DNA from: Candidatus Aenigmatarchaeota archaeon
GTDB taxonomy: Archaea; Aenigmatarchaeota; Aenigmatarchaeia; JACPZZ01
Assembly (NCBI GenBank): GCA_016180965.1
Contig: JACPAF010000002.1
Location: 82,529 to 146,528 of the forward strand
Reading direction: 5' to 3'
Length of the DNA stretch: 64,000 nucleotides
The position numbers and the translations under genes were made by a program. Each line of letters begins with the position of its first letter. Positions within the stretch are counted from its first letter, which is position 1. Below, piece by piece: positions 1,487 to 63,734 of this stretch. The notes below the pieces were generated by a model. That model was not told where the DNA came from. It ran no database searches and saw nothing but the letters and a program-made list of their open reading frames with translations.

Positions 1487-2749
1487 ATGGCGAAACCGCA
1501 TATTAACATCATGACATCTGGGCACGTAGACCATGGAAAATCCACTTTGATAGGCCGATTGCTGTTCGATACGGGCGCAATCCGTGAAGACGAGATGCGC
1601 AAGTTGAAAGAAACGGCGACAGAATTAAAAAAAGAAACTTTTGAGTTCGCGTTTGCAATGGATACTTCCAAGGAAGAGCGTGAGCGAGGCGTAACGATAG
1701 ATTTGATGCACAAGCCTTTTGAAACACAGAAGAATTATTTCACGATCATAGATGCACCGGGCCACAGGGACTTTGTAAAGAACATGATTACCGGAGCAAG
1801 CCAAGCTGATGCTGCAATTTTGCTTTGTTCTGCAAAAGAAGGAATTCAGGATCAAACAAGAGAACACGCTTATTTGTTAAAAGTTTTGGGTATAAAGCAG
1901 ATGACTGTCGCAATAAACAAGATGGATGCTGTTGGATACGATGAAGCGAAGTTCAACGCGATAAAATCCGAAGTCACGAAGCTTTTGCAGGGCATTGGTT
2001 ACAAAATTGACGCTGTCCCAATGATTCCGGTTTCCGGTTACATGGGCGATAACGTTGTTAAGAAATCTGATAAGATGCCATGGTACAAAGGGCCGACGTT
2101 ACTTGAATCCTTAGATTCTATCCAGCTTCCTCCTAAACCAATTGACAAGCCGTTGAGATTACCAGTCCAAGATGTTTATGATATCAAGGGTATCGGTATA
2201 GTTCCTGTAGGAAGGATTGAAACAGGTGTAATGAAGCCGGGCGATCAAATCGTTTTCATGCCTTCTGGTACAAAAGCTGAAGTTAAATCGGTTGAAATGC
2301 ACCACAAGCAATTGACGCAAGCGGAACCAGGCGATAACGTCGGTTTCAACGTACGCGGCATATCACGCGACCAAATTAAGCGCGGTGATGTAGTTGGAAG
2401 GCCTGAGAACCCTCCGACTGTTGCAAAGGAATTCACAGCCCAGATAATCATATTGAACCATCCTACTGTCATAACAAAAGGGTACACGCCTGTATTCCAT
2501 TGCCACACAGCACAGATGGCCGGTGAAATATTCGAGATTGTAAAGAAATTGGATCCGAAAACAGGTGCAACGATTGCAGAAAACCCTGATTTGTTAAAGA
2601 CAGGAGATGCTGCGATCGTTAAGATAAGACCTGCGAAACCATTGGTAGTTGAGAAGCAGGCTGATTTCCCGCAATTAGCCAGATTCGCGATCCGCGACAT
2701 GGGCCAGACTGTGGCGGCCGGCGTTGTCATAGACTTGGTCAAGGCTTAA
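1487..2749 (+). CDS. tuf: Elongation factor 1-alpha (aEF-1alpha)
   Basis: GTPase motifs 'GHVDHGKST', 'DAPGH' and 'NKMD' in a full-length 420-aa ORF. 'GAGGTGA' lies 7 nt upstream of the ATG. Confidence 0.97.
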
Positions 2750-3556: not shown

Positions 3557-4546
3557 TCATCTTACCCATAACCAGGTATTTTTTCCTGTGTCTGCTACAG
3601 AGCAACAGCTGCTATAGACTCCGGAACTGCCTGTACCGCTGCTTATGCCAAACCCTAAAACAGAATCTACTGAGTTGCAATCGTTTTCGTTATTTCCTAG
3701 GTATCCCCATCTCACTTTACGGCTCCCATCGTTGTTGAAGCCTCTTGTGCCACAATTGGATTGGGCTGTTAAACTGAAAACGGCGTCGAATTGGGCTCTT
3801 GTTGGGCCCTCCTGCAAAAACGGACCGCTGAAAAGAGAGAGCGCAGACGTTTTTTGTGCGCCAAATGTGTGAGACAGACAATTCGATGTTGACGTAGTGA
3901 CGCAGCCCCTGATTTCTTGAAATGAAACCGTGTTGAATGATTTGTATTTTGCAGAGTTGGCTGCCAACGTCAAGTCTTCAGGATTTAGTGTGTTGGAGGT
4001 GGTCCAGTAATTGCTTGAATATTTCAGTGTGTTGGACGAGCTCAGGGTTTTCATGATCAATGTCCACCCGCCGTTGGCCATGTCGCAATAAACTTGAAAA
4101 ATGTCGTCCGATGTCGGTGCGATATCGTACAATCCATCCACGGCAGAGCCATCGAGGTTCAAAATGTCTTTGCACGACACACCTATAGGGACTGTTACGG
4201 TCAAAGTCGCGGTGTTGCATATGCTGGATGTGCACAACATTAATTTGTGACTGCCTTTTTCCATAACAGCAATGGGCTTTATCAATGCCGCCTCTCCGGC
4301 TTGTATGCTGCTTGGCATGAGAAGGTTTACGGAGTTCCCGTCCAAAGTCGCTGCAATGCTGGCGACGGCGTTTGTCCCGTCATTCCTTACGATTATCTGG
4401 TTGTTGGCGCTGCCCACAACATTTAACACGTTAGCGGCCTGGCTTGTGAACATCCCGGAAATAAAAACGTAGGTTGTGCCGATTATACCGACCGTGATTA
4501 TCAACAAAAGTGTGATTGCGATAACGGGTGTCACTGCTTTCCTCAT
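3557..4546 (-). CDS. Class-III-signal (archaeal type IV pilin-like) surface protein with an Ig-like domain and a C-terminal fibrinogen-related domain
   Basis: The N-terminus 'MRKAVTPVIAITLLLIITVGIIG' is a prepilin-type signal. 'SCKDIL..DGLYDIAP...FQVYCDMANGGWTLI' matches the fibrinogen C-terminal domain signature. Confidence 0.75.
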   Translation of the reverse strand: MRKAVTPVIAITLLLIITVGIIGTTYVFISGMFTSQAANVLNVVGSANNQIIVRNDGTNAVASIAATLDGNSVNLLMPSSIQAGEAALIKPIAVMEKGSHKLMLCTSSICNTATLTVTVPIGVSCKDILNLDGSAVDGLYDIAPTSDDIFQVYCDMANGGWTLIMKTLSSSNTLKYSSNYWTTSNTLNPEDLTLAANSAKYKSFNTVSFQEIRGCVTTSTSNCLSHTFGAQKTSALSLFSGPFLQEGPTRAQFDAVFSLTAQSNCGTRGFNNDGSRKVRWGYLGNNENDCNSVDSVLGFGISSGTGSSGVYSSCCSVADTGKNTWLWVR

Positions 4547-5180: not shown

Positions 5181-5771
5181 ATGAAAAAAGAAATTGTAAT
5201 CGGCGTTGTTTTATTAACTGCGGTCCTTTTATTTATTGTATCCAAACCCATAATCAATGGACAAAGTGGAAATGATATGAATAAGATTGTTGTGTTAGAG
5301 ACTTCGAAAGGAAATGTAGAGGTACAACTTGATAATGTGAACGCGCCGATCACGACTGCGAATTTTTTGCGTTATGTCAATGAAGGCTTTTACAATGGCA
5401 CCATATTTCATCGTGTGATGCCTGGTTTTATGGCGCAGGGCGGAGGATTTACGCCAAATGGCACGGAAAAACAAACACACGAAGCGATAAAACTTGAATC
5501 AAATAACGGATTGAAAAACAAACGCGGAACGATTGCGATGGCTCGGACTTCGGTTCCGGACAGCGCGACGAGCCAGTTTTTTATCAATGCGGTTGACAAT
5601 TCTTTTTTGGATTACGCGCACGGGAATGACGGTTATGCGGTTTTTGGCAGTGTCACGAAAGGTATGGAGGTCGTCGATTCGATCCTTTCTGTGAAAACGG
5701 GCGATAGAGGATCATTTTCGGATTGGCCTTTGCAGGATATTGTTATAAAAGGCGCTTACGTTAAAAAATAA
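5181..5771 (+). CDS. Peptidyl-prolyl cis-trans isomerase (cyclophilin type) with an N-terminal membrane anchor or signal
   Basis: 'FHRVMPGFMAQGGGF' and 'GTIAMARTSVPDSATSQFFIN' are cyclophilin motifs. The N-terminus is hydrophobic. Confidence 0.92.
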   Translation: MKKEIVIGVVLLTAVLLFIVSKPIINGQSGNDMNKIVVLETSKGNVEVQLDNVNAPITTANFLRYVNEGFYNGTIFHRVMPGFMAQGGGFTPNGTEKQTHEAIKLESNNGLKNKRGTIAMARTSVPDSATSQFFINAVDNSFLDYAHGNDGYAVFGSVTKGMEVVDSILSVKTGDRGSFSDWPLQDIVIKGAYVKK

Positions 5772-5816: not shown

Positions 5817-6620
5817 ATGTGGGGAGACAAATCGGGGGAAACAAAAAAAGAAACTAATTGGCTGGGAGAAACCAAAGAATCCCATTATGACAGCGGCGGT
5901 AGCAAAATAGGAGAGACGAGATTTTCTACTAATTGGCTGGGCGGGTCGAAACAAGAACACTATGATTCGTCTGGAAACAAGGTTGGAGAAACGCGAAAAG
6001 GAACGGATTGGTTGGGCGGGGATAGAGCAGATCATTACGATGCACGAGGCGACAAGATCGGCACGAGCCGGGATGGGGTTGATTTCTTGGGCCAACCCGT
6101 CCAGAGGCATTACGATGTGCAAGGCAGTCAGATTGGATCGACGAGGCGAACTACTGATTTGTTAGGCACATCAAAGAAGGTGCATGAAGGCGATTGGCTT
6201 AAAGCTCCTTTGTCCAATTATCCAGCTGAAAGTACGGGCGGAAGCGGAGGAGATAGACATGATACACCTGCAAGTGCACCGCAATCCAGTTATGGGAACC
6301 AACCCCAACAACGACTGGCGCAAGATGCAGCGAGGGAACGCTTTGGGAAGGAATGGGACAAGAGCTTCGATCGTTCGATGAGGGAAATAGATGAAAAATT
6401 TGCACGAATCCAAGCAGAGTATCGTAAAAGCGAACTGGAACAAAAAAGAAAGCGGGACGAGGAGGATAGGCGCGTTCGAGTGGAATTGGACAAAGCTATT
6501 GAGCGTATTAGGATTGCCAATGTTGAGTATGAACAACAGGAAAGGAGAGAATGGAACGAGGTGTTTGAGCGTTCTCGCAGAGCATCAGAAGAAGTGGAAC
6601 GGGTTTTATCAGGACTATAG
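5817..6620 (+). CDS. Repeat protein: about 4.5 tandem 25-aa 'WLGxxxxHYDxxGxKIGxTR' repeats plus a charged coiled-coil C-terminus
   Basis: 75-nt periodic repeats run from about 5853 to 6200 (TNWLGETKESHYDSGGSKIGETRFS, then TNWLGGSKQEHYDSSGNKVGETRKG, and so on). The C-terminal third is rich in E, R and K. Confidence 0.6.
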   Translation: MWGDKSGETKKETNWLGETKESHYDSGGSKIGETRFSTNWLGGSKQEHYDSSGNKVGETRKGTDWLGGDRADHYDARGDKIGTSRDGVDFLGQPVQRHYDVQGSQIGSTRRTTDLLGTSKKVHEGDWLKAPLSNYPAESTGGSGGDRHDTPASAPQSSYGNQPQQRLAQDAARERFGKEWDKSFDRSMREIDEKFARIQAEYRKSELEQKRKRDEEDRRVRVELDKAIERIRIANVEYEQQERREWNEVFERSRRASEEVERVLSGL

Positions 6621-6695: not shown

Positions 6696-7892
6696 ATGAA
6701 TTTTGAAGATTTGCACCTAAAACCGGAATTATTGAAGGCTGTCCGTGAATTGGAGTTCACAGAATTAACTGAAATACAGGAGAAAAGCATACCTGAGATA
6801 CAGGCCGGCAAGGATATTGTCGGACAATCAAGCACAGGCTCAGGAAAAACCGCAGCTTTTGGACTGCCTATTTTACAGAAGATTGAGCACGGTAAAGGCA
6901 TTCAAGCGCTAATTTTGACTCCTACCAGAGAGTTGTGTGTTCAGGTCACGGATGCGCTAAGAAGTTTTGCTAAATATACCAATGTCAGCGTAGCCAGCGT
7001 TTTTGGCGGTGTTTCAATCGAACCTCAAGTAAATGCGCTGCGCAATGCGGATGTTATTGTCGGAACTCCGGGCAGGATTTTAGACCACACGGAACGCAGG
7101 ACGATAAATTATCAAAATGTGCGCTTTTTGGTCATAGACGAAGCCGATAAAATGTTTGAAATGGGCTTTATCGAAGACGTCGAAAAGATCATAAGACATA
7201 TTCCGAACCAAAGACAAACCATGTTATTCAGCGCGACCATGCCGTCGGAAGTAAGACACATAGTTGAAAAACATTTAATTTCACCGGTGACTATTAAGGG
7301 AATTGTTTACGTTGACACGAGCTTGCTGCGACAGGTCTATTACGACGTAAAGCCGCATGATAAATTTTCCTTGTTAGTTCACCTGTTAAAACAAAACAAG
7401 GAAGGCATTGCACTGGTTTTCTGCGCAACCCGAAGGGAAGCGGACGCTGTCGCATTCAATTTGAAAGAACAGGGAATAAACGCGATGGCGATACACGGGG
7501 GAATGGAACAGAATAAACGCTTAAAATCGGTTGAGGCTTTGAAAAACGAAACTATCAATGTGCTTGTTGCGACGGACGTTGCAGCGCGCGGTCTCGATAT
7601 CCGCAACGTATCACACGTTTACAATTATGACGTACCAAAAACGTCTTCCGATTACATACATCGCGTTGGGCGCACTGCGAGAGCGGGCGGAGAAGGCGAT
7701 GCTGTTACATTGTTATCCGAACGCGACCATGGAAGTTTCACAATGGTCTTGCGTGACCGCAGTTTGAAGATAACGCGTTCTGAAAAGCCCGGTTTTGAGC
7801 GTGTGCCTTTCAAAAGATCCGAAGGGCGAGAAGGAGGTTTCAGGAAACATAATTTCCGCAGGCCGAGTTTCAATAGAAGGCCGAGATACTAG
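6696..7892 (+). CDS. DEAD-box ATP-dependent RNA helicase
   Basis: Motifs 'GQSSTGSGKT', 'PTRELC', 'VIDEADKM', 'SAT' and 'HRVGRTARAG'. Confidence 0.95.
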   Translation: MNFEDLHLKPELLKAVRELEFTELTEIQEKSIPEIQAGKDIVGQSSTGSGKTAAFGLPILQKIEHGKGIQALILTPTRELCVQVTDALRSFAKYTNVSVASVFGGVSIEPQVNALRNADVIVGTPGRILDHTERRTINYQNVRFLVIDEADKMFEMGFIEDVEKIIRHIPNQRQTMLFSATMPSEVRHIVEKHLISPVTIKGIVYVDTSLLRQVYYDVKPHDKFSLLVHLLKQNKEGIALVFCATRREADAVAFNLKEQGINAMAIHGGMEQNKRLKSVEALKNETINVLVATDVAARGLDIRNVSHVYNYDVPKTSSDYIHRVGRTARAGGEGDAVTLLSERDHGSFTMVLRDRSLKITRSEKPGFERVPFKRSEGREGGFRKHNFRRPSFNRRPRY

Positions 7893-52022: not shown

Positions 52023-53033
52023 ATGAAAGCCGTAACGCCGGTAATCGCTTTAGTTATGCTGATGTTAATCACAGTCGGGATGGTCGGGACAGCATACACA
52101 TTCGTTTCAAGTTCGTTCAACAGCAAAATATCCAACGTCTTTAGCGTGATATATTCTTTACAAAATACTGTGATAATCAGAAATGACGGTACGCAGCCTA
52201 TAACCTCATTTACCGCGACACTGGACGGGAACCAGGAAAATATGGTCATCATGCCCGGCATATCAGGTTTGGTTGCGTATTGGGGCTTCAACGACGGTGC
52301 CGGAACAGTTGCGAAAGACTCGCAAGGCGCTACGAATTTTGAAATAAGGAACCTCGTGACTTGGGTAAGCGGAAAATTCGGCAAGGCCGTTAAAATAGAT
52401 GAAACAGTTGACGCAGGCTGTATCAACCAGGATGCGGGAGTTTTCACCGACAGCATACCAGCGTTGATCCAATCACTGCCGCAAAACTCATTTACACAGT
52501 CGTGGTGGAATTACCTGCCGGTAAACAGCGGATCCACTAGGGTCCATATGGCAAGTGTGGTTGTTCCGGGATGCGGAGTATGCAGCGTATGGAATATGAT
52601 AAACAAAGTGGAGGCGAGAACCGTTTCGGGCGGGGTTTCCGACATGCTGTACACCATGCCGTCGGCAAACGCGTGGCACCACATGGCGTATGTTTTCGAC
52701 AAGCCCAACCTCCGGCATAAGTTTTATATCGACGGCGAACTGGTCGCCGACAATCCGTTAGTTAACGGCGATTACGGCACAGTCCAGTGGCTGGCTGTGG
52801 GTGTGTATAATCCAAACTGCGTGGATGCGATACCGGGGGCCATTTACGACGAATATGGGATATACAACAGGGCTCTAGGCGTTGATGAAATAAAGAAATT
52901 ATACTCTTCAGCGTCCATAGAACCGGGAAAAACTGCGACGTTGAAACCACTTACAACTTTGTCAGCAGGCAAACACACCCTAGTATTGTGCACGGCAAAC
53001 GCGTGCAATACTGTGATTTTAACTGTTACTTAA
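52023..53033 (+). CDS. Class-III-signal (pilin-like) surface protein with a LamG/ConA-like lectin domain nested inside the Ig-like domain
   Basis: 'MKAVTPVIALVMLMLITVGMVG'. The LamG signature is 'LVAYWGFNDGAGTVAKDSQG...WVSGKFGKAVKID'. The flanking halves 'IIRNDGT..TATLDGN..MPG' and 'IEPGKTATLKP..GKHTLVLCT' match the domain that is contiguous in 3557..4546. Confidence 0.75.
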   Translation: MKAVTPVIALVMLMLITVGMVGTAYTFVSSSFNSKISNVFSVIYSLQNTVIIRNDGTQPITSFTATLDGNQENMVIMPGISGLVAYWGFNDGAGTVAKDSQGATNFEIRNLVTWVSGKFGKAVKIDETVDAGCINQDAGVFTDSIPALIQSLPQNSFTQSWWNYLPVNSGSTRVHMASVVVPGCGVCSVWNMINKVEARTVSGGVSDMLYTMPSANAWHHMAYVFDKPNLRHKFYIDGELVADNPLVNGDYGTVQWLAVGVYNPNCVDAIPGAIYDEYGIYNRALGVDEIKKLYSSASIEPGKTATLKPLTTLSAGKHTLVLCTANACNTVILTVT

Positions 53034-57734: not shown

Positions 57735-58581
57735 ATGAAAGGCGTCACACCTGTCATAGCTTTGGTCATGCTGATGTTAATCACAGTGGGCATCGTTGGC
57801 GCGTCCGCGACATGGTTTTCGGGCACGTTTACATCACAGACGAAAAAATTCGTGTTTCTTCGGCGATATGAAAAATTATATGGCCGGTTATTGGAAATTT
57901 GATGAAGGGTCTGGTACAACAGCGTCGGATAATTCCGGCACAGCACCGCCGAATACAGGAACATTGACGAACATGGATACCGCGACTGTTTGGGTCGCAG
58001 GGAAATCAGGACGCGCATTGAAATTCGACGGGGTCAACGATTATGTAAATGTGCCTGACAGTGCGAGTCTTACTATTTCAGGCCCAATTACTGTATCAGC
58101 CTGGGTCAATTTCAAGTCATTCACAAACATAATTGAGGCGATCGCCAGCAAAAATGCTGTCAGCAATGGATGGACTTTGGAAAAAGAAGCCGCTTCAAAT
58201 GCGCTGTCATTCTGGATAAATAGTGCAAACAGGGCAACAACGGACGTTTTATCATTAAACACGTGGTACCACATCACGGGCACGTTTGACGGTTCGAATA
58301 TCAAAATATACAGAGATGGCGTGCGCAAAGCCACAACAGCGCAAGGCAGTTCCACAGCTTCTGCCGGCAGCCTGAGAATAGGCGTGGCTGCTTTGGACGC
58401 CAACCGCTTTTTCGACGGGGTAATAGATGAAGTGAAAATCTACAACAAAGCTATCGGCGATGTCAACATACAGCCTGGAAGTTCCGGTCTTGTTATCAAT
58501 TATCCTGGCCTGGAAGGCAAACACGCAATTAAAATCGGAACGTCTTCAAACGTTGCAGAAGCAGGCGTAACTTGCGTGTAA
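57735..58581 (+). pseudogene. Class-III-signal (pilin-like) LamG-domain protein, frameshifted; a +1 shift is needed between 57796 and 57902
   Basis: The signal 'MKGVTPVIALVMLMLITVGIVG' is in frame 0. The LamG part 'MAGYWKFDEGSGTTASDNSG...WVAGKSGRALKFDG' is in frame +1. An A6 run (57843-57848) lies in the overlap. Confidence 0.7.
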
Positions 58582-59629: not shown

Positions 59630-61054
59630 ATGCACAAATGCGGCATAGGGGCGGCTGTAAACACAGAAACGCCTTTTCAGGATATGTTTCAGCAAGCTGT
59701 GAGCATACAAAACAGGGGTTACGACGGCTGCGGATTCTCGCTCCACGATTTGGATAGCGGAATAATAAAAACTTACAGGGGCCCGGGCAGGGTGGTGAAT
59801 GTTTTTTTAGAAAGCCTGGACGCATCGGAAATAAATTCCGACAGGGGAATTTTTAACAACAGATACAGGACAACAGGAGACACAAACCCGCAAAATTTGC
59901 AGCCTATTGCTGCCGGAGGTTATGTTGTCTCGCACAACGGCAATGTTTTCAATTCCAGGCGCCTCGCAGAAGAACACGGGATAAAACTGGAAGATTCTGA
60001 TTCTGATACACACGTGATTGCCCAAATAATCAGGCAGGCGGGAAGTATCAAAGCTGGCATGAAATTGTTGGCAGAGGAGGCGCTCGGCGCGTTTAACCTT
60101 GCTGTCATGGATATCAACGGAGTCGTTGGCGTGTACAGGGACCCGTGGGGTTATCACCCGTTATTCGCGGGAAGGCGCGGAAAATCAACATATTTCGCAT
60201 CCGAGGAACCCGGGATACATGCGCTCGGAATTTATGATGCTGAAGAACTAAAACCCGGAGACTTGTGGTTAACGGACGGGGTTTACACTGATAAAATTTC
60301 GATAAGGCCTTCGCGCACCAAATCCGGTTTTCCGATAAGAACAAGCATATGCTCGGTGGAAATTCCATACTTCATGAATCCGGGGGGCAGTTTCGGAGGA
60401 ACTCTCAGTTCACAGTTCAGGGAAAACGCCGGCGCAAGACTGGCTGATCTGGACGAATTCCCGAATGACGGCGATACAATTGTAGTGCCGATAATGAATT
60501 CCGGGGAACATTATGCAATAGGCTATAGCGAGAGGAGCGGAATACCAATGAAAAAAGGTTTCCAGGTTAATACAGCAATGAACAGGCTCTACATGGAGGA
60601 AGACAAATTAAGCGTGTTGGGCGTGACCCCGCAAAAGATGGCCAGGCTAAAAAATATGGTAGTACCGGAAATAGTCAGGGGCAAAAGAGTCATAGTCACT
60701 GACGATACGATAGTGAGGGCAGGAACTGTTCCAGAATTAATAAAAGACCTTTTTGATGCCGGCGCCGAAGAAGTTCATTTAAGAATCGGGACGTCTCCGA
60801 TAATATCCTCCTGCCACATGGGGCTGAATCATTCGGACACAACTAAATTACGCGCTGCCACAGCGGTTGAAAATCCCCGAACCGCACCTCTTAGAGAAAT
60901 GGAGGAGAGCGTCCGAATAGGCATTGACGGCAGAATAAAATCGCTGCGTTATTTGCCCATGGAAGATTTCAAAACCCTCCTAGGCGACAAAAATGACCAT
61001 TGCTTCGGATGTTTTACCGGAGTTTACCCGGTTCCCATACTGCAAGCCCATTAA
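59630..61054 (+). CDS. purF: Amidophosphoribosyltransferase-like protein (class-II glutamine amidotransferase plus PRTase domain)
   Basis: 'MHK-CGIGA' supplies the N-terminal nucleophile Cys. 'QNRGYDGCGFS', and the PRPP loop 'VIVTDDTIVRAGT'. Confidence 0.8.
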   Translation: MHKCGIGAAVNTETPFQDMFQQAVSIQNRGYDGCGFSLHDLDSGIIKTYRGPGRVVNVFLESLDASEINSDRGIFNNRYRTTGDTNPQNLQPIAAGGYVVSHNGNVFNSRRLAEEHGIKLEDSDSDTHVIAQIIRQAGSIKAGMKLLAEEALGAFNLAVMDINGVVGVYRDPWGYHPLFAGRRGKSTYFASEEPGIHALGIYDAEELKPGDLWLTDGVYTDKISIRPSRTKSGFPIRTSICSVEIPYFMNPGGSFGGTLSSQFRENAGARLADLDEFPNDGDTIVVPIMNSGEHYAIGYSERSGIPMKKGFQVNTAMNRLYMEEDKLSVLGVTPQKMARLKNMVVPEIVRGKRVIVTDDTIVRAGTVPELIKDLFDAGAEEVHLRIGTSPIISSCHMGLNHSDTTKLRAATAVENPRTAPLREMEESVRIGIDGRIKSLRYLPMEDFKTLLGDKNDHCFGCFTGVYPVPILQAH

Positions 61055-61086
61055 CCTTTATTACCGCGCATCAACAACTGTTTTTG

Positions 61087-61533
61087 ATGAAAAATCTGAA
61101 TTACAAAATATGCGAAATCATTGACAGGAAACCGTTTCGTGTATTTGCCGTATTGCTGCTTATTTTGAACTTATCCGGGCTTGGAGACGCCAATTATTTA
61201 ACATTACTCGCAATCTCTGGTTCTTTGCTTTCAATTTTCACCAGCCTGGCGCTTAAAATGATTTTCAAAACAAGACGGCCTGAGCATAACAAATACAGGA
61301 TAATAAAATACGGGTTTCCGTCCGGACATGCCCATGTAATCTTTACGATAGCTACGATATACTCATACTATTTGCCTTATCTGACAATGCCGTTTTTCAT
61401 ATTAGCCAGCTTTGTGTCTGCAAGCCGGATAAAAATAAAGGCGCACGGGCACGTGGACTTATTGGGCGGGATTTTTTTGGGAATCTTCACAGGCCTTATT
61501 GTCGCGGTTTTAGCGCCCAGATTAATGGGTTAA
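61087..61533 (+). CDS. PAP2-family phosphatase (membrane)
   Basis: 'KMIFKTRRP', 'PSGH' and 'SRIKIKAHGHVD' are the three PAP2 motifs. Confidence 0.88.
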   Translation: MKNLNYKICEIIDRKPFRVFAVLLLILNLSGLGDANYLTLLAISGSLLSIFTSLALKMIFKTRRPEHNKYRIIKYGFPSGHAHVIFTIATIYSYYLPYLTMPFFILASFVSASRIKIKAHGHVDLLGGIFLGIFTGLIVAVLAPRLMG

Positions 61534-62627
61534 CGGGATTTCTTGTTGTATATTTCCCATTTCACGTCCTTGCCCGATGCCATTTTGAAAACGGTTTCCA
61601 TTATTGAAATACCGAAAACCAAAACCATCGGTATGATCAATGGGGAATAGAAAACAAATTTTATTTTTTTCCCTTTTACCGAACAGATCAAGGAAAATAA
61701 TGACGCTGAAATAACCAGAATGGCGAGCATTGAAACTGCGAAAGCTTCCATTGACAAAAAATAATACAAGTAAAACGGCATCGAAATTGCTATTAACGAA
61801 GAAATAACAAGTATAGCAACTGAAAGGTAATCTTTGCCTGTCGACAAAATAAACCCTTTCATGCGCGCGCCCACCCCTTTACGGTAATCGCGCAGCGAAC
61901 TTGGGATGTGCTGGTAAGTTTCAGCATCGGCATGCTCTACTGTGAAACTGTTTCTTCTCGCATCATTGACGAAGTCCCAATCTTCATTGAAACTGTTCTT
62001 GAATCTGATTTTCTTGAAAACGCCCGTTTTAACCATTGACCCGATCCCCATGTATTCCCCGGATTTCAACAAAGACCCCAAACCTTCGGATATCCTGGAA
62101 GTGAAATACAACCCGTAACCGTAGATCTTACCGTATAATGATTTTTCCGATATGGAACAAAATTCGGATATTATTATATCCGCATCCCTGGCAAGCATTT
62201 TTTTAATCCAATTGCTTTCCAAGACACAATCTGCGTCAACGAAAGCTGTATAATCGCCTTTAACTTTTCCGATGGCCGTATTCAGGGCGAACCATTTTCC
62301 GCGCCTGGCTTTTTCGTGTATAAAATTAACGCGCTTGCCGCGGGCCAAGTTATTGCATATCTTCAAAGTGTTTTCATCCCCTCCGCCGATTAAAATTACA
62401 TTAAACTTTCCTTCCGGATAATTTTGCGCTAAGATTGAATTAACACATTTAGCTACTCGATTACCTTCGTTCCATACTGCGACTACAAAAGAAATTCCAG
62501 GCTCTTTTTTGATTTTCATTGACGGCCTGGTGAAAATTATCCCGAATGCGGCAATTATTTGTATCAGGATTATGGGAACAACCCATATCACGGAAAACAA
62601 CTGAATTTCGGATACCAATTTAACCAC
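61530..62627 (-). CDS. Membrane glycosyltransferase family 2, paralogue A
   Basis: 'SFVVAVWNEGNRVAKCVNSILAQNYP' and 'FVDADCVL', with N- and C-terminal TM segments. Confidence 0.85.
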   Translation of the reverse strand: MVKLVSEIQLFSVIWVVPIILIQIIAAFGIIFTRPSMKIKKEPGISFVVAVWNEGNRVAKCVNSILAQNYPEGKFNVILIGGGDENTLKICNNLARGKRVNFIHEKARRGKWFALNTAIGKVKGDYTAFVDADCVLESNWIKKMLARDADIIISEFCSISEKSLYGKIYGYGLYFTSRISEGLGSLLKSGEYMGIGSMVKTGVFKKIRFKNSFNEDWDFVNDARRNSFTVEHADAETYQHIPSSLRDYRKGVGARMKGFILSTGKDYLSVAILVISSLIAISMPFYLYYFLSMEAFAVSMLAILVISASLFSLICSVKGKKIKFVFYSPLIIPMVLVFGISIMETVFKMASGKDVKWEIYNKKSR

Positions 62628-62639
62628 ACATTTTAAACA

Positions 62640-63734
62640 TTATTTCCCTGTTTTATTGTAGATCTCCCATTTTATTTCCCTTCCAAACAGCATTTTAACA
62701 ACGGCTTCGAGGGAAAATAACCCGGTGAACGCCATCAAAGGGATCATCATAGGCGAATAAAAAATAAACCTGTAGTTTTTGTATTTAATTGAGCATACAA
62801 GCGAGAATACCGCCAAAGAAAATATCGTGAGCAAAATGGAATTTATTGCAAACTGGCTGCCGGAGATTATCTGATATATATTGAACGGTATGGACAAAGC
62901 TGCAATTATATAAAAAGCGGACATGAATATTGACGACGCATTTCCCATAGACATCGCCTCAAGTACGAATCCTTTGCTTAACCTCAACAGACCTTTGCGA
63001 AGGCCGTTTAAAGTTTCGGGCGCATGCTCGTATGTTTTCGCAGTTGAATGTTCAACCGAAAAGTTGCGTTTCTTTGCGTCTTCAACAAACCACCAGTCCT
63101 CTATGAAGCTGTTGCGGAATTTTATTTTCTCAAAGACTTTGGATTTTACCAAGGAACCGATGCCTATGAACTCCCCATTTCGTAAAAATTTATTGAGCCC
63201 TTCGGACAAGCGCGGGCCGATATATAATACATAAGCATAAAACTTGCCTTTCAGGGTTTTTTCGGATATCGAAAGATAATCCGCAACTACTATGTCTGCA
63301 TCGTGAGTTAACATCTTTTTTAGCCAATCCTTTTCCAGCACACAGTCTGCATCGGTAAACGCGACATAGTCCGTTTTAACCTTTTTCAAAGCCGTGTTCA
63401 AAGCGAACCATTTTCCGCGCCTCTCCTTTTCCATCATGTATTCGATCTTGTGTTCTCCGGCTAATTTTTTGCATTCTTCGACTGTTTCTTGATTACCGCC
63501 GCCGACTACAATAATACGGATATTTTCAACCGGGTAATTTTGGGTTAAAATTGAGTTAACGCACTTGGCGACACGCCTACCTTCGTTCCATACTGCCACG
63601 ATAAAAGTTAATTTTGGCTGTTTTGTTACCAAGCTCGGTTTTTTTGACAGCTGTATCAGCATTCCCAAACTGCACAAAAAAACCAGAGGGATAAGAATAA
63701 ACATCCACAAGTAGGACAAAAATGCCAACGACAT
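62640..63734 (-). CDS. Membrane glycosyltransferase family 2, paralogue B
   Basis: 'TFIVAVWNEGRRVAKCVNSILTQNYP' and 'FTDADCVL'. Collinear with 61530..62627. Confidence 0.85.
   Translation of the reverse strand: MSLAFLSYLWMFILIPLVFLCSLGMLIQLSKKPSLVTKQPKLTFIVAVWNEGRRVAKCVNSILTQNYPVENIRIIVVGGGNQETVEECKKLAGEHKIEYMMEKERRGKWFALNTALKKVKTDYVAFTDADCVLEKDWLKKMLTHDADIVVADYLSISEKTLKGKFYAYVLYIGPRLSEGLNKFLRNGEFIGIGSLVKSKVFEKIKFRNSFIEDWWFVEDAKKRNFSVEHSTAKTYEHAPETLNGLRKGLLRLSKGFVLEAMSMGNASSIFMSAFYIIAALSIPFNIYQIISGSQFAINSILLTIFSLAVFSLVCSIKYKNYRFIFYSPMMIPLMAFTGLFSLEAVVKMLFGREIKWEIYNKTGK

What the first reader, a model, noticed from the sequence alone, without database searches (positions are those of the whole stretch)
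3557..4546. Pilin-like surface protein ending in a fibrinogen-related (FReD-like) domain
The N-terminus is an archaeal prepilin-type (class III) signal, 'MRKA|VTPVIAITLLLIITVG'. An Ig-like module follows. The segment at about 3560-4180 encodes 'SCKDILNLDGSAVDGLYDIAP...FQVYCDMANGGWTLIMK', the hallmark start of the fibrinogen C-terminal globular domain. That domain is a carbohydrate or acetyl-group lectin best known from animals. A FReD displayed on a pilin-type anchor would be a plausible host- or partner-cell adhesin for a small symbiotic archaeon.
Basis: partly seen in the sequence, partly recalled or inferred. Interest (0 to 1): 0.65.

Follow-up and report, generated by a model that had tools for sequence, protein, structure and literature searches.

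The report
Archaeal pilin carrying intelectin/fibrinogen-like binding domain
A small symbiont-type archaeon (Aenigmarchaeota) encodes a complete type IV pilin fused to a domain distantly related to animal fibrinogen-type and intelectin lectins, so it is most likely a surface or pilus adhesin; the domain belongs to a large, uncharacterised family of bacteria and phages rather than being a true animal-type fibrinogen domain.

Summary
The 329-aa ORF at 3557..4546(-) is real and reads as quoted.

- **Pilin module (residues 1-~120).** This is a complete archaeal type IV pilin: leader MRKA|V, a hydrophobic helix and a β-sandwich. Its family profile matches only solved archaeal pili, and about 185 relatives are mostly stand-alone pilins.
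- **C-terminal module (residues 124-329).** This is a confidently folding domain (pLDDT 95.9) of the "fibrinogen-like YCDxxxxGGGW" family (NCBIfam NF040941, 45 bits against a cut-off of 30).
- **How fibrinogen-like it is.** Only the first ~50 residues are fibrinogen-like by sequence. Pfam Fibrinogen_C scores 21.1 bits, under its cut-off of 22.
- **Fold.** The closest solved structures are intelectins (TM 0.53-0.58). Fibrinogen and ficolin domains score lower (TM ≤0.42), and their ligand-binding P subdomain is missing. Uncharacterised cyanophage proteins are near-identical in fold (TM 0.86).
- **Distribution.** The family has about 1,800 clusters, mainly Myxococcota, with scattered members in CPR bacteria, DPANN archaea and phages.

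The window holds two more pilins of the same scaffold carrying LamG lectin domains. All such archaeal modular pilins almost completely lack N-glycosylation sequons (11 observed, 84 expected).

Best reading: a modular pilin adhesin. Ligand and filament assembly are untested.

The parts
3557..4546 (-). Complete gene: 329-aa modular pilin (pilin module plus FReD/intelectin-like module), including the stop codon
   Evidence: ORF list; identical to NCBI HYT71_02325; same protein in 3 independent runs
4535..4546 (-). Class III (prepilin) leader peptide M1-R-K-A4; predicted cleavage after Ala4
   Evidence: In the profile alignment, residue 1 of the deposited Iho670 chains (3j1r/5kyh, 'VSPVIATLL...') aligns with V5 of the target. 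Conserved K-(A/G)-(V/I)-(S/T)-(P/T)-V-I-A motif in 11 scaffold relatives. Cleavage itself is inferred.
4454..4534 (-). Hydrophobic N-terminal α1 helix of the pilin (about residues 5-31): filament core / membrane anchor
   Evidence: Only strongly hydrophobic stretch (Kyte-Doolittle 19-residue windows >1.6 start only at residues 1-16); helix 7-19 in the model; Pilin_N match at residues 3-61
4187..4453 (-). Pilin globular β-sandwich (about residues 32-120) ending in the conserved LCTSS(M/I)CNTA hairpin (Cys105, Cys110)
   Evidence: Scaffold alignment A5; profile aligns over positions 2-108 with the Pyrobaculum calidifontis type IV pilin 8fk7 (E=2e-4; identity of 8FK7 from PMC10334743); weak CARDB/Ig hits in relatives. 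AF2 confidence is low here.
3560..4177 (-). C-terminal FReD-superfamily / intelectin-like 'GGGWT' domain (residues 124-329), with Cys125-Cys154, Cys215-Cys223 and Cys265-Cys290 as likely disulfides
   Evidence: Domain-only AF2 model pLDDT 95.9, pTM 0.92; Foldseek PDB and BFVD; whole-domain homologues; phrog_1325 E=9e-20; column conservation
4055..4177 (-). The only part similar in sequence to fibrinogen C domains and intelectins: A-subdomain plus first β-strand, 'SC...DG.Y.I...YCDM..GGWTL' (residues 124-164)
   Evidence: NF040941 match at residues 124-164; Fibrinogen_C match at 124-172 to profile positions 4-54; PDB alignments
52023..53033 (+). Paralogue: same pilin scaffold with a LamG (concanavalin-A-like lectin) domain inserted into the β-sandwich (336 aa, HYT71_02700)
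   Evidence: Laminin_G_3 E=3.9e-12; scaffold alignment with the insert removed; name
57735..58581 (+). Second LamG pilin paralogue, split over two frames at an A6 run (57843-57848). Removing one A gives a continuous 281-aa pilin-helix + LamG ORF.
   Evidence: Laminin_G_3 E=1.4e-28

Best explanation
The gene encodes a modular archaeal type IV pilin. After export, a prepilin peptidase removes the four-residue leader (MRKA|V). The hydrophobic α1 helix and the small β-sandwich (residues 5-~120) form a full pilin subunit, which can sit in the membrane and be built into a type IV pilus. It is probably a minor or tip subunit among stand-alone pilins of the same family. The disulfide-stabilised 206-residue C-terminal module (residues 124-329) is held outside the cell as a binding head. 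It is a prokaryote/phage-type member of the fibrinogen-related superfamily, nearest in fold to the Ca2+-dependent intelectins. It most likely recognises a surface glycan or other surface polymer of a partner or host cell.

Shown: the gene, the two modules, their homologies and the fold.

Inferred: cleavage, incorporation into a filament, ligand class and the role in attachment.
For: **Pilin module.**
- The conserved class III motif and a 118-residue scaffold are shared with 10 other archaeal proteins.
- 8 of 11 of these hit Pfam Pilin_N, best E=4.6e-9.
- The scaffold profile hits only solved archaeal type IV pili: P. calidifontis 8fk7 at E=2e-4 over the whole pilin, H. volcanii 8fj5, Iho670 and Natrinema PilA2.
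- 185 relatives are mostly stand-alone 120-150-aa pilins of Aenigmarchaeota/Micrarchaeota named 'flagellin-like / type IV pilin N-terminal'. The first 120 residues are therefore a complete pilin.

**Head module.**
- NF040941 scores above its cut-off.
- The AF2 model has pLDDT 95.9.
- Every PDB match at E<=0.001 is an intelectin/X-type lectin or a fibrinogen-related domain.
- Three conserved Cys pairs fit an extracellular protein.

**Deployment elsewhere points to extracellular recognition.**
- In bacteria the domain sits in secreted multidomain or lipoproteins.
- It is fused to a bacterial type IV pilin N-methyl domain in P0122.
- In cyanophages it has TM 0.86, and in phage S-8S29 the homologue lies between genes annotated as tail fibre proteins.

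**Same scaffold, other binding modules.**
- Two LamG paralogues lie in this window.
- LamG inserts occur in P0230/P0232/P0245, and a tail-fibre-like C-terminus in P0235.
- The pilin + GGGWT architecture recurs in other archaeal contigs: P0003, P0008, P0010, P0055, P0165 and L045, which is from Aenigmatarchaeota.

**Sequon depletion.** Observed 0 against 5.6 expected in the target; 11 against 83.6±8 expected in 19 archaeal modular pilins. This fits export past an N-glycosylation machinery, with selection to keep the surface bare.

**Precedent.**
- Bacterial modular pilins carry lectin or vWA modules (PMC8179133).
- Lectin-like minor pilins are implicated in Saccharibacteria host binding (PMC11623550).
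- Lectin-like surface proteins are proposed for host recognition in DPANN (bioRxiv 10.1101/2023.10.27.564410).
Against: - No prepilin peptidase, assembly ATPase or platform gene was recognised in the 64-kb window, although only a motif scan was run. None lies next to the homologues in two other archaeal contigs.
- The target alone is under the Pilin_N gathering score: 14.9 bits for the whole protein and 17.8 for residues 1-122, against 25.2.
- No ligand can be inferred. The canonical FReD binding subdomain is absent, the intelectin structural Ca2+ motif HENxxxGxCTxGD (PMC9682848) is not present after GGWTLIMK, and no member of the GGGWT family was found in the searched literature.
- A 206-residue head on a 115-residue pilin may be too bulky for the body of a filament.
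- The symbiotic lifestyle of this MAG is assumed from its lineage, not shown.
Confidence: 0.55

Rival explanations
1. A cell-surface receptor that is never polymerised. The class III signal and hydrophobic helix serve only as a membrane anchor or for a short surface assembly, as with the class III-signal sugar-binding proteins ('bindosome') of Sulfolobus. The head captures environmental or host-derived polysaccharide at the cell surface rather than at a pilus tip.
For: - The gene is solitary among housekeeping genes: EF-1α, cyclophilin and a DEAD helicase.
- No pilus machinery lies nearby here or in two homologous loci.
- The head is bulky.
- A DPANN lectin-like protein with an N-terminal TM helix and Ig fold has been described as a surface protein.
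- The bindosome precedent rests on my own knowledge, not on a tool result.
Against: The N-terminal 120 residues are homologous over their full length to filament-forming pilins, not just to a signal peptide. Archaeal pilin genes are commonly scattered away from their machinery (general knowledge).
Confidence: 0.2
2. The head is not a lectin. It either binds a protein or an abiotic ligand, or it is an enzyme acting on cell-envelope polymers. The invariant polar residues (K200, N271, R279, N285, D/N294) would then form an active site or an anion-binding site.
For: - Near-invariance of K200 (104/107), N271 (104/107), R279 (106/106) and N285 (93/106) across very divergent members.
- No carbohydrate-binding motif of ficolins or intelectins can be aligned.
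- Animal FReDs also bind proteins, for example fibrinogen, angiopoietins and FGL1 (names).
Against: - All structural neighbours are binding domains, none an enzyme.
- The domain travels with adhesin-type partners (pilins, Cys-rich repeats, tail-fibre neighbourhoods) and not with catalytic domains.
- The paralogues on the same scaffold carry LamG lectin-type domains.
Confidence: 0.15
3. One reading: a canonical fibrinogen-related domain, equivalent to ficolin or tachylectin-5A, that binds acetyl groups or GlcNAc-type sugars through the standard S1 pocket.
For: Fibrinogen_C is the top Pfam hit (E=3e-4). Tachylectin-5A, ficolins and FIBCD1 appear among the PDB sequence hits.
Against: - The hit is below the gathering score and covers 51 of 221 profile positions.
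- TM to ficolins, fibrinogen γ and FGL1 is 0.30-0.42.
- Nothing aligns to the P subdomain, which holds the Ca2+ site and acetyl pocket.
- The second half of the model is β-strand rich, unlike what I recall of the mostly irregular P subdomain.
Confidence: 0.07
4. A chance ORF or annotation artefact.
For: None beyond its 'hypothetical protein' label.
Against: Homologues cover both modules. The fold is very confident. The identical protein occurs in several samples.
Confidence: 0.01

Closest known systems
NCBIfam NF040941 'fibrinogen-like YCDxxxxGGGW domain-containing protein' (GGGWT_bact) and the full ~205-residue domain behind it
   Same: The target passes the model (45.3 bits against 30). It aligns over its whole C-terminal domain with hundreds of such proteins, with shared motifs SC..I, DG.Y.I, YCDM..GGGWTL, W-T, AK..FN, G.N, R.G...NNE, D...GFG and (I/L)WVR-COOH.
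   Different: The curated model covers only 46 residues, is labelled bacterial, and has no assigned function. Here the domain is in an archaeon and hangs on an archaeal pilin.
Intelectins / X-type lectins (human intelectin-1 4WMQ/4WMY/6USC, Xenopus XEEL 4WMO, lamprey serum lectin 7E1E)
   Same: - Best sequence and structure matches in PDB: phmmer E=2e-5, profile E about 1e-10 to 1e-11, Foldseek E about 1e-5 with TMq 0.53-0.58.
- Shared fibrinogen-like lobe.
- A permissive hhalign run lays the whole domain collinearly on intelectin-1 (NNE on NNE, Cys-Asn, G.G, terminal aromatic-x-R), but with no confidence outside the first 50 residues. The intelectin C-terminal sequence used was verified against PDB.
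   Different: - About 75 residues shorter.
- TM normalised on the intelectin is only 0.42-0.46.
- The structural Ca2+ motif HENxxxGxCTxGD is absent (PMC9682848; sequence).
- The ligand-site residues cannot be matched with confidence.
- Intelectins are soluble animal trimers, not pilin fusions.
Canonical fibrinogen-related domains (Pfam PF00147: fibrinogen β/γ C domains, ficolins, tachylectin-5A, FIBCD1, angiopoietins)
   Same: A-subdomain with its Cys-Cys pair and the YCDM...GGGWT strand. There is also local structural overlap of about 120-130 columns.
   Different: Below the Pfam gathering score. No P subdomain, Ca2+ loop or acetyl pocket. Global TM 0.30-0.42.
Modular type IV pilins of bacteria (S. 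sanguinis PilB with a vWA module, PilC with a ConA-like lectin module; Raynaud et al. 2021, PMC8179133) and lectin-like minor pilins PilX1/PilX2 of Saccharibacteria (PMC11623550)
   Same: A small complete pilin module with a functional binding module grafted on. LamG/PF13385 is one of the common grafted modules in that survey and is also present on this scaffold in the window. A bacterial pilin + GGGWT fusion exists (P0122).
   Different: Those are bacterial pilins with the N-methyl/IPR012902 motif. The word 'archaea' does not occur in the main text of that survey. Here the carrier is an archaeal Pilin_N-type subunit. In some relatives the module is inserted inside the β-sandwich rather than appended.
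Uncharacterised cyanophage proteins (phrog_1325; S-CAM8 A0A1D8KMS1, P-HM2 E3SSV2; S-8S29 WLW36872)
   Same: Same domain over nearly its full length: phrog_1325 E=9.3e-20, Foldseek TMq 0.86 and rmsd 2.7-2.9 Å, tblastn 30% identity over 81%.
   Different: Phage proteins of about 300-316 aa with a different N-terminal part. In S-8S29 the gene lies among tail-fibre genes. Function unknown.

Membership tests
Pfam PF00147 Fibrinogen_C (canonical FReD) | Score at or above the curated gathering score, over most of the 221-position profile | tested here: not met
   21.1 bits against a cut-off of 22; E=3e-4; only residues 124-172 aligned to profile positions 4-54
Pfam PF00147 Fibrinogen_C (canonical FReD) | A-subdomain with a conserved disulfide pair and the YCDM...GGGWT strand | tested here: met
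   C125 and C154 are nearly invariant, and G159-G160-W161-T162-L163 are invariant or nearly so, in 107 relatives; aligned to FReDs
Pfam PF00147 Fibrinogen_C (canonical FReD) | P subdomain with Ca2+ loop, second disulfide and ligand (acetyl/peptide) pocket | tested here: not met
   No sequence or profile alignment beyond about 55 residues. Foldseek aligns about 120-130 columns, or gives TMq 0.30-0.42 globally.
NCBIfam NF040941 GGGWT_bact | Score above the curated cut-off | tested here: met
   45.3 bits against 30, E=6.2e-12, residues 124-164 aligned to profile positions 1-46 of 46. All six close homologues also pass.
Intelectin / X-type lectin | Same overall fold as solved intelectins | tested here: inconclusive
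   Best PDB matches. TM 0.53-0.58 normalised on the 212-residue query but 0.42-0.46 on the intelectin, with rmsd 6-7 Å.
Intelectin / X-type lectin | Structural Ca2+ motif HENxxxGxCTxGD directly after GGGWTLVASV | tested here: not met
   Motif taken from PMC9682848. The target reads GGWTLIMKTLSSSNTLKYSSNYWTT.
Intelectin / X-type lectin | Ligand-binding Ca2+ site and aromatic box (as I recall, N260/E262/E274, H263, W288, Y297 in hIntL-1) | tested here: inconclusive
   A permissive hhalign run puts C290-N291 on C259-N260 and N285-E287 on N242-E244, but with zero confidence. No coordinates were available for superposition.
Archaeal type IV pilin (Pfam PF07790 Pilin_N / class III signal peptide) | Profile score above the gathering score | tested here: inconclusive
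   Target: 14.9 bits for the whole protein and 17.8 bits for residues 1-122, against 25.2. 8 of 11 scaffold relatives match, best E=4.6e-9. TIGR02537 gave no hit for the target.
Archaeal type IV pilin (Pfam PF07790 Pilin_N / class III signal peptide) | Short basic leader, then small residue | hydrophobic residue, then a helix of about 25 hydrophobic residues | tested here: met
   MRKA|VTPVIAITLLLIITVGIIGTTYVFISG; hydropathy; V5 aligns to residue 1 of the deposited Iho670 chains
Archaeal type IV pilin (Pfam PF07790 Pilin_N / class III signal peptide) | Homology of the whole subunit to filament-forming pilins | tested here: met
   Profile A5 against PDB: 8fk7 E=2e-4 over positions 2-108, plus 8fj5, 9myg, 5kyh and 8gi2, with essentially no other kind of protein. 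185 relatives are mostly stand-alone pilins.
Archaeal type IV pilin (Pfam PF07790 Pilin_N / class III signal peptide) | Processing by a prepilin peptidase and assembly by a type IV filament ATPase/platform encoded in the genome | not testable with these tools
   None recognised in the 64-kb window by motif scan. The rest of the 280-kb contig and the MAG could not be read.
Modular pilins (sensu Raynaud et al. 2021) | Pilin module plus an extra module that is a defined domain not specific to pilus biology | tested here: met
   Complete pilin module plus GGGWT/FReD-like domain; definition from PMC8179133
PHROG phrog_1325 | Significant profile match over the domain | tested here: met
   E=9.3e-20, domain residues 7-192 aligned to profile positions 104-308 of 334

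The most novel reading that the evidence does not exclude
DPANN archaea such as this Aenigmarchaeote may carry a toolkit of N-glycan-free modular type IV pilins. One conserved pilin scaffold would display interchangeable recognition heads: an intelectin/fibrinogen-like GGGWT domain, LamG lectin domains, and phage tail-fibre-like tips. These heads are shared with phage proteins found among tail-fibre genes and with Myxococcota surface proteins, and would be used to pick out host cells. The prokaryotic GGGWT domain, which includes a full-length β-rich version conserved from cyanophages to archaea, would then represent the ancestral form from which animal intelectins and fibrinogen-related lectins descend.
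Probability: 0.3. Interest if true: 0.7.

Novelty: new variant of a known kind. Interest (0 to 1): 0.5.

Why it matters
How ultra-small DPANN archaea recognise and hold on to partner cells is largely unknown. A pilin that carries a ready-made recognition head is a concrete candidate that can be cloned.

The finding also extends the 'modular pilin' idea from bacteria to archaeal pilins. It shows the same scaffold accepting different heads, either appended or inserted.

It also puts attention on a large prokaryote and phage domain family (about 1,800 clusters at 50% identity) with no tested function. That family links the animal intelectin and fibrinogen-type lectins to microbial surface proteins.

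The near-absence of N-glycosylation sequons in these archaeal lectin-pilins is a new and testable signature. It could also serve as a search criterion for further adhesins.

Tried and rejected
- **Extending homology to FReDs or intelectin beyond the first ~50 residues.** phmmer, a family profile against PDB and hhalign local all stop at about position 55. hhalign with -glob or very low mact produces a collinear full-length alignment to intelectin-1, but with no confidence. I treat it only as a lead.
- **Pilus machinery or an AglB motif in the window.** Motif scans found no T2SSE-type Walker A ATPase, no obvious A24 peptidase and no WWDYG motif. The GxGD hit at 61000..61533 looks like a PAP2 phosphatase by eye, not a peptidase.
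- **Conserved gene neighbourhood.** The target contigs found by exact look-up are only 2-3 kb. Two archaeal homologues (P0003, P0008) sit among unrelated housekeeping genes. There is no conserved operon.
- **Literature on the prokaryotic domain.** Searches for GGGWT / YCDxxxxGGGW and for bacterial fibrinogen-related domains gave nothing relevant. Wesener et al. 2015 (PMC4526365) is not held, so the intelectin-1 ligand residues are cited from memory.
- **Genome scan with the six-sequence alignment.** It failed for lack of a conserved stretch and was repeated with a four-sequence alignment.
- **tRNA scan of the window.** No genes found.
- **Cluster name look-up.** Almost no organism names were returned.
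- **Spurious-ORF and canonical-ficolin-type readings.** Both were considered and rejected, as set out under the rival explanations.
Full report
**Observation.** It is identical to an NCBI entry, 'MAG: hypothetical protein HYT71_02325 [Candidatus Aenigmarchaeota archaeon]', on a 280,827-bp contig. The identical protein is also found on short contigs from three separate sequencing runs. The surrounding window is archaeal housekeeping DNA: EF-1α at 1487..2749, a cyclophilin at 5181..5771 and a DEAD-box helicase at 6696..7892. A block of ORFs at about 12.8-23 kb looks like a ribosomal-protein cluster by eye. GC content is about 43% throughout, so the gene does not sit in a compositional island.

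**The N-terminal module is a complete archaeal type IV pilin.**
- The protein starts MRKA-VTPVIAITLLLIITVGIIGTTYVFISG. This is the only strongly hydrophobic stretch in the protein.
- Alone, the target is under the Pfam Pilin_N cut-off: 14.9 bits for the whole protein and 17.8 bits for residues 1-122, against 25.2. TIGR02537 does not hit it.
- It aligns at 28-51% identity over about 118 residues with ten other archaeal proteins. They share the motif K-(A/G)-(V/I)-(S/T)-(P/T)-V-I-A, then '(I/V)RNDGT', 'ATLDGN', 'I.PG..AT.KPL' and a terminal 'LCTSSMCNTA.LT'.
- Eight of these eleven sequences hit Pilin_N, best E=4.6e-9.
- A profile of the eleven finds essentially only solved archaeal type IV pilins in the whole PDB. 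These are 8fk7 (E=2e-4, aligned over profile positions 2-108, so helix plus β-sandwich), 9myg, the Ignicoccus Iho670 adhesion filament (3j1r/5kyh), 8fj5 and Natrinema PilA2.
- 8FK7 and 8FJ5 are the Pyrobaculum calidifontis and Haloferax volcanii type IV pili (PMC10334743).
- Residue 1 of the deposited Iho670 chains aligns with V5 of the target.
- Searching the same profile against 5.8 billion proteins gives 185 hits. Most are stand-alone proteins of 120-150 aa, called 'flagellin-like protein' or 'archaellin/type IV pilin N-terminal domain-containing protein'. The few that carry organism names are from Aenigmarchaeota and Micrarchaeota.
- Residues 1-~120 are therefore a whole pilin subunit, not just a signal peptide.
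- The 'Ig-like module' rests on this homology. The AlphaFold model is unreliable there, with pLDDT 40-50 for residues 22-95.

**The C-terminal module.**
- Pfam Fibrinogen_C is the top Pfam hit but scores 21.1 bits against a gathering score of 22 (E=3e-4). It covers only residues 124-172 against profile positions 4-54 of 221.
- NCBIfam NF040941, 'fibrinogen-like YCDxxxxGGGW domain-containing protein' (GGGWT_bact), is clearly passed: 45.3 bits against 30, E=6.2e-12.
- phmmer against PDB puts Xenopus XEEL and human intelectin-1 first, followed by angiopoietin-like proteins, FGL1, fibrinogen β/γ, FIBCD1 and tachylectin-5A. All matches cover only about residues 124-185.
- A family profile raises the significance to E about 1e-10 to 1e-11 but still aligns only about 55 positions. 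hhalign against intelectin-1 gives 97.6% probability over 46 columns.
- The whole 206-residue region is nevertheless a conserved domain. A profile of six homologues finds 1,688 proteins, typically covering 85-100% of the domain. An exhaustive phmmer run finds 1,818 cluster representatives at E<=1e-3 and 674 at E<=1e-10, including giant multi-repeat proteins.
- Near-invariant positions across 107 aligned members:
  - C125 and C154;
  - G159, G160, W161, T162 and L163;
  - W181, N188, K200, G269, N271, R279, G281 and N285;
  - G298, G300, G309 and the C-terminal R329.
- N286/E287 and D/N294 are common. Two further Cys pairs, 215/223 and 265/290, are each present in about 55-60% of members.

**Fold.**
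- With a 107-sequence alignment the domain alone is predicted at pLDDT 95.9 and pTM 0.92.
- Against the PDB, every hit at E<=0.001 is an intelectin/X-type lectin or a fibrinogen-related domain.
- The best matches are intelectin-1, XEEL and the lamprey serum lectin: E about 1e-5, with TM 0.53-0.58 on the query and 0.42-0.46 on the target.
- Fibrinogen γ/β, FGL1, ficolins and tenascin reach TM 0.30-0.42. They often align only about 120-130 columns at 4.5-6 Å, which is the A and B subdomains.
- The second half of the model is β-strand rich.
- The intelectin structural Ca2+ motif HENxxxGxCTxGD (PMC9682848) is not present.
- A permissive hhalign run lays the domain collinearly along intelectin-1. 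It puts NNE on NNE, C290-N291 on C259-N260, GFG on GGG and WVR-COOH on FYR-COOH, but with no confidence. The intelectin segment I had recalled was verified as exact against 6usc/4wmq. I regard this as a lead only.
- Against predicted viral structures, two uncharacterised cyanophage proteins (S-CAM8 A0A1D8KMS1 and P-HM2 E3SSV2) match at TM 0.86 and rmsd 2.7-2.9 Å.
- The domain hits phrog_1325 (unknown function) at E=9.3e-20.
- tblastn finds seven Synechococcus phage records. In phage S-8S29 the homologue lies between genes annotated 'putative short tail fiber' and 'tail fiber protein'.

**Distribution.**
- Among GTDB species representatives, 296 stretches encode a relative.
- The 80 best are dominated by Myxococcota. 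There are also Auribacterota, several Patescibacteria/CPR lineages, Leptospiraceae and Prosthecobacter.
- Only two are archaeal: an 'uncultured archaeon' and a Candidatus Aenigmatarchaeota MAG.
- The uncultured-archaeon protein is a 1,374-aa protein with a hydrophobic, signal-like N-terminus and the domain near its N-terminus.
- The Aenigmatarchaeota protein (L045, 368 aa) is again a class III-signal pilin. There the GGGWT domain is inserted before the last β-strands rather than appended, as in P0010.
- Other proteins with an archaeal-type pilin N-terminus plus this domain are P0003, P0004, P0008, P0030, P0039, P0054, P0055, P0059, P0096 and P0165.
- A bacterial type IV pilin (N-methyl motif, PF07963) fused to the same domain also exists (P0122).

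**A modular scaffold.**
- The window holds two more genes with the same pilin N-terminus.
- 52023..53033(+) (336 aa, HYT71_02700) has a LamG / concanavalin-A-like domain (PF13385, E=3.9e-12). It is inserted between 'LDGN...MPG' and 'SIEPGKTATLKPL...LCTANACNTVILTVT'.
- 57735..58581(+) has the pilin helix and a LamG domain (E=1.4e-28) in two different frames. Removing one A from the A6 run at 57843-57848 restores a 281-aa ORF.
- Relatives elsewhere carry LamG inserts (P0230, P0232, P0245), a Cys-rich tail (P0210), or a phage tail-fibre-like C-terminus matching many PHROG tail-fibre families (P0235).
- This is the 'modular pilin' design described for bacteria: S. sanguinis PilB with a vWA module and PilC with a ConA-like lectin module, with PF13385 among the most frequent grafts (PMC8179133). 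The main text of that survey does not contain the word 'archaea'.
- Lectin-like minor pilins are implicated in host binding of the episymbiotic Saccharibacteria (PMC11623550).
- Lectin-like surface proteins have been proposed as host-recognition factors in cultivated DPANN archaea (bioRxiv 10.1101/2023.10.27.564410).

**An unexpected signature.**
- The target has 26 Asn and 22% Ser+Thr but not one N-x-S/T sequon. About 5.6 are expected, and only 0.14% of shuffles give zero.
- The two LamG paralogues also have none.
- Nineteen archaeal modular pilins have 11 sequons against 83.6±8.0 in shuffles (minimum 56 in 2,000 shuffles). The control motifs [ST]-x-N (103) and N-[ST] (96) are not depleted.
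- Stand-alone pilins of the same scaffold family have an observed/expected ratio of 0.84. The other, mostly bacterial, GGGWT proteins have 1.00, and all window ORFs have 0.79.
- I read this as indirect evidence of two things: these proteins are exposed to an N-glycosylation machinery, so they are exported, and they are selected to stay unglycosylated. The reason is unknown. Self-glycans blocking the lectin head is one possibility.

**Mechanism proposed.**
- Shown: the gene; a complete pilin module with a class III signal; a confidently folded, Cys-paired, FReD-superfamily head nearest to intelectins and to cyanophage proteins; recurrence of this architecture; and swapping of heads on one scaffold.
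- Inferred: leader cleavage by a prepilin peptidase, incorporation (probably as a minor or tip subunit) into a type IV pilus made of stand-alone pilins, binding of a surface glycan or polymer of a partner cell, and a role in attachment.
- Against: no machinery was recognised in the window or beside the homologues, and no ligand can be inferred.
- I put about 0.55 on this model.
- The alternatives are about 0.2 on a non-polymerised surface receptor, about 0.15 on a non-lectin (protein-binding or enzymatic) head, and less than 0.1 on a canonical ficolin-type acetyl lectin.

**Verdict.**
- The domain should be called a prokaryote/phage-type 'GGGWT' fibrinogen-related domain, closer to intelectins, and not a ficolin/TL5A-type FReD.
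- The family is already catalogued (NCBIfam), and the modular-pilin principle is known in bacteria. I therefore rate this a new variant of a known kind, of moderate interest. The sequon-free archaeal lectin-pilin family is the most original by-product.

Noticed in passing
window 3557-4546, 52023-53033, 57796-58581; proteins P0003, P0004, P0008, P0030, P0039, P0230, P0232 and others: Near-total absence of N-x-S/T glycosylation sequons in archaeal modular (lectin-bearing) pilins: 11 observed against 83.6±8 expected in 19 proteins, and 0 in each of the three window genes. Stand-alone pilins of the same family (ratio 0.84), bacterial GGGWT proteins (1.00) and the other window ORFs (0.79) are not depleted.
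   Followed up: partly
window 52023-53033 (+): Paralogous pilin (HYT71_02700, 336 aa) with a LamG / concanavalin-A-like lectin domain inserted inside the pilin β-sandwich. The same design occurs in P0230, P0232 and P0245.
   Followed up: partly
window 57735-58581 (+), A6 run at 57843-57848: A third pilin + LamG gene is broken by a frameshift at a homopolymeric A6 tract. Deleting one A gives an intact 281-aa ORF. This could be an assembly error, a pseudogene or slipped-strand on/off switching of an adhesin.
   Followed up: partly
L084 (Synechococcus phage S-8S29, OQ504979.1 66286-67236): Cyanophage homologue of the whole GGGWT domain (phrog_1325), lying between annotated short-tail-fibre and tail-fibre genes. 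BFVD models of S-CAM8 and P-HM2 proteins match the archaeal domain at TM 0.86.
   Followed up: partly
P0235 (566 aa; not in the window): The same archaeal pilin scaffold is fused to a long C-terminus that matches many phage tail-fibre / long-tail-fibre distal-subunit PHROGs (best E=9e-28). It is, in effect, a pilin carrying a phage-like receptor-binding tip.
   Followed up: no
L045 546-1652 (Ca. Aenigmatarchaeota MAG) and P0010: In these relatives the GGGWT domain is inserted into the pilin, and the last β-strands ('...SVQPGETAT...CSGLCSY...') follow the domain. In the target it is appended.
   Followed up: no
L012 1678-5802 (uncultured archaeon): A 1,374-aa protein with a hydrophobic, signal-like N-terminus begins with a GGGWT domain. 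It is preceded by a 523-aa Gly-rich repeat protein. This is a different archaeal deployment of the same domain.
   Followed up: no
window 5817-6620 (+): A 267-aa ORF with no Pfam hit has about 25-residue tandem repeats of the type 'WLGxxKxxHYDxxGxKIGETR', followed by a charged, probably coiled-coil tail.
   Followed up: no
window 61000-63734: By eye, a PAP2-type phosphatase-like membrane protein (KxxxxxRP / PSGH / SR...H...D motifs) next to two paralogous ~365-aa membrane proteins that look like glycosyltransferases. This may be an envelope-glycan locus. No Pfam scan was run.
   Followed up: no
P0122, P0109 (bacterial metagenome proteins): Bacterial type IV pilin (N-methyl motif 'GFTIVELLIVVVVIAILA') fused to the same GGGWT domain. 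The pilin + GGGWT combination has therefore arisen in both domains of life.
   Followed up: no
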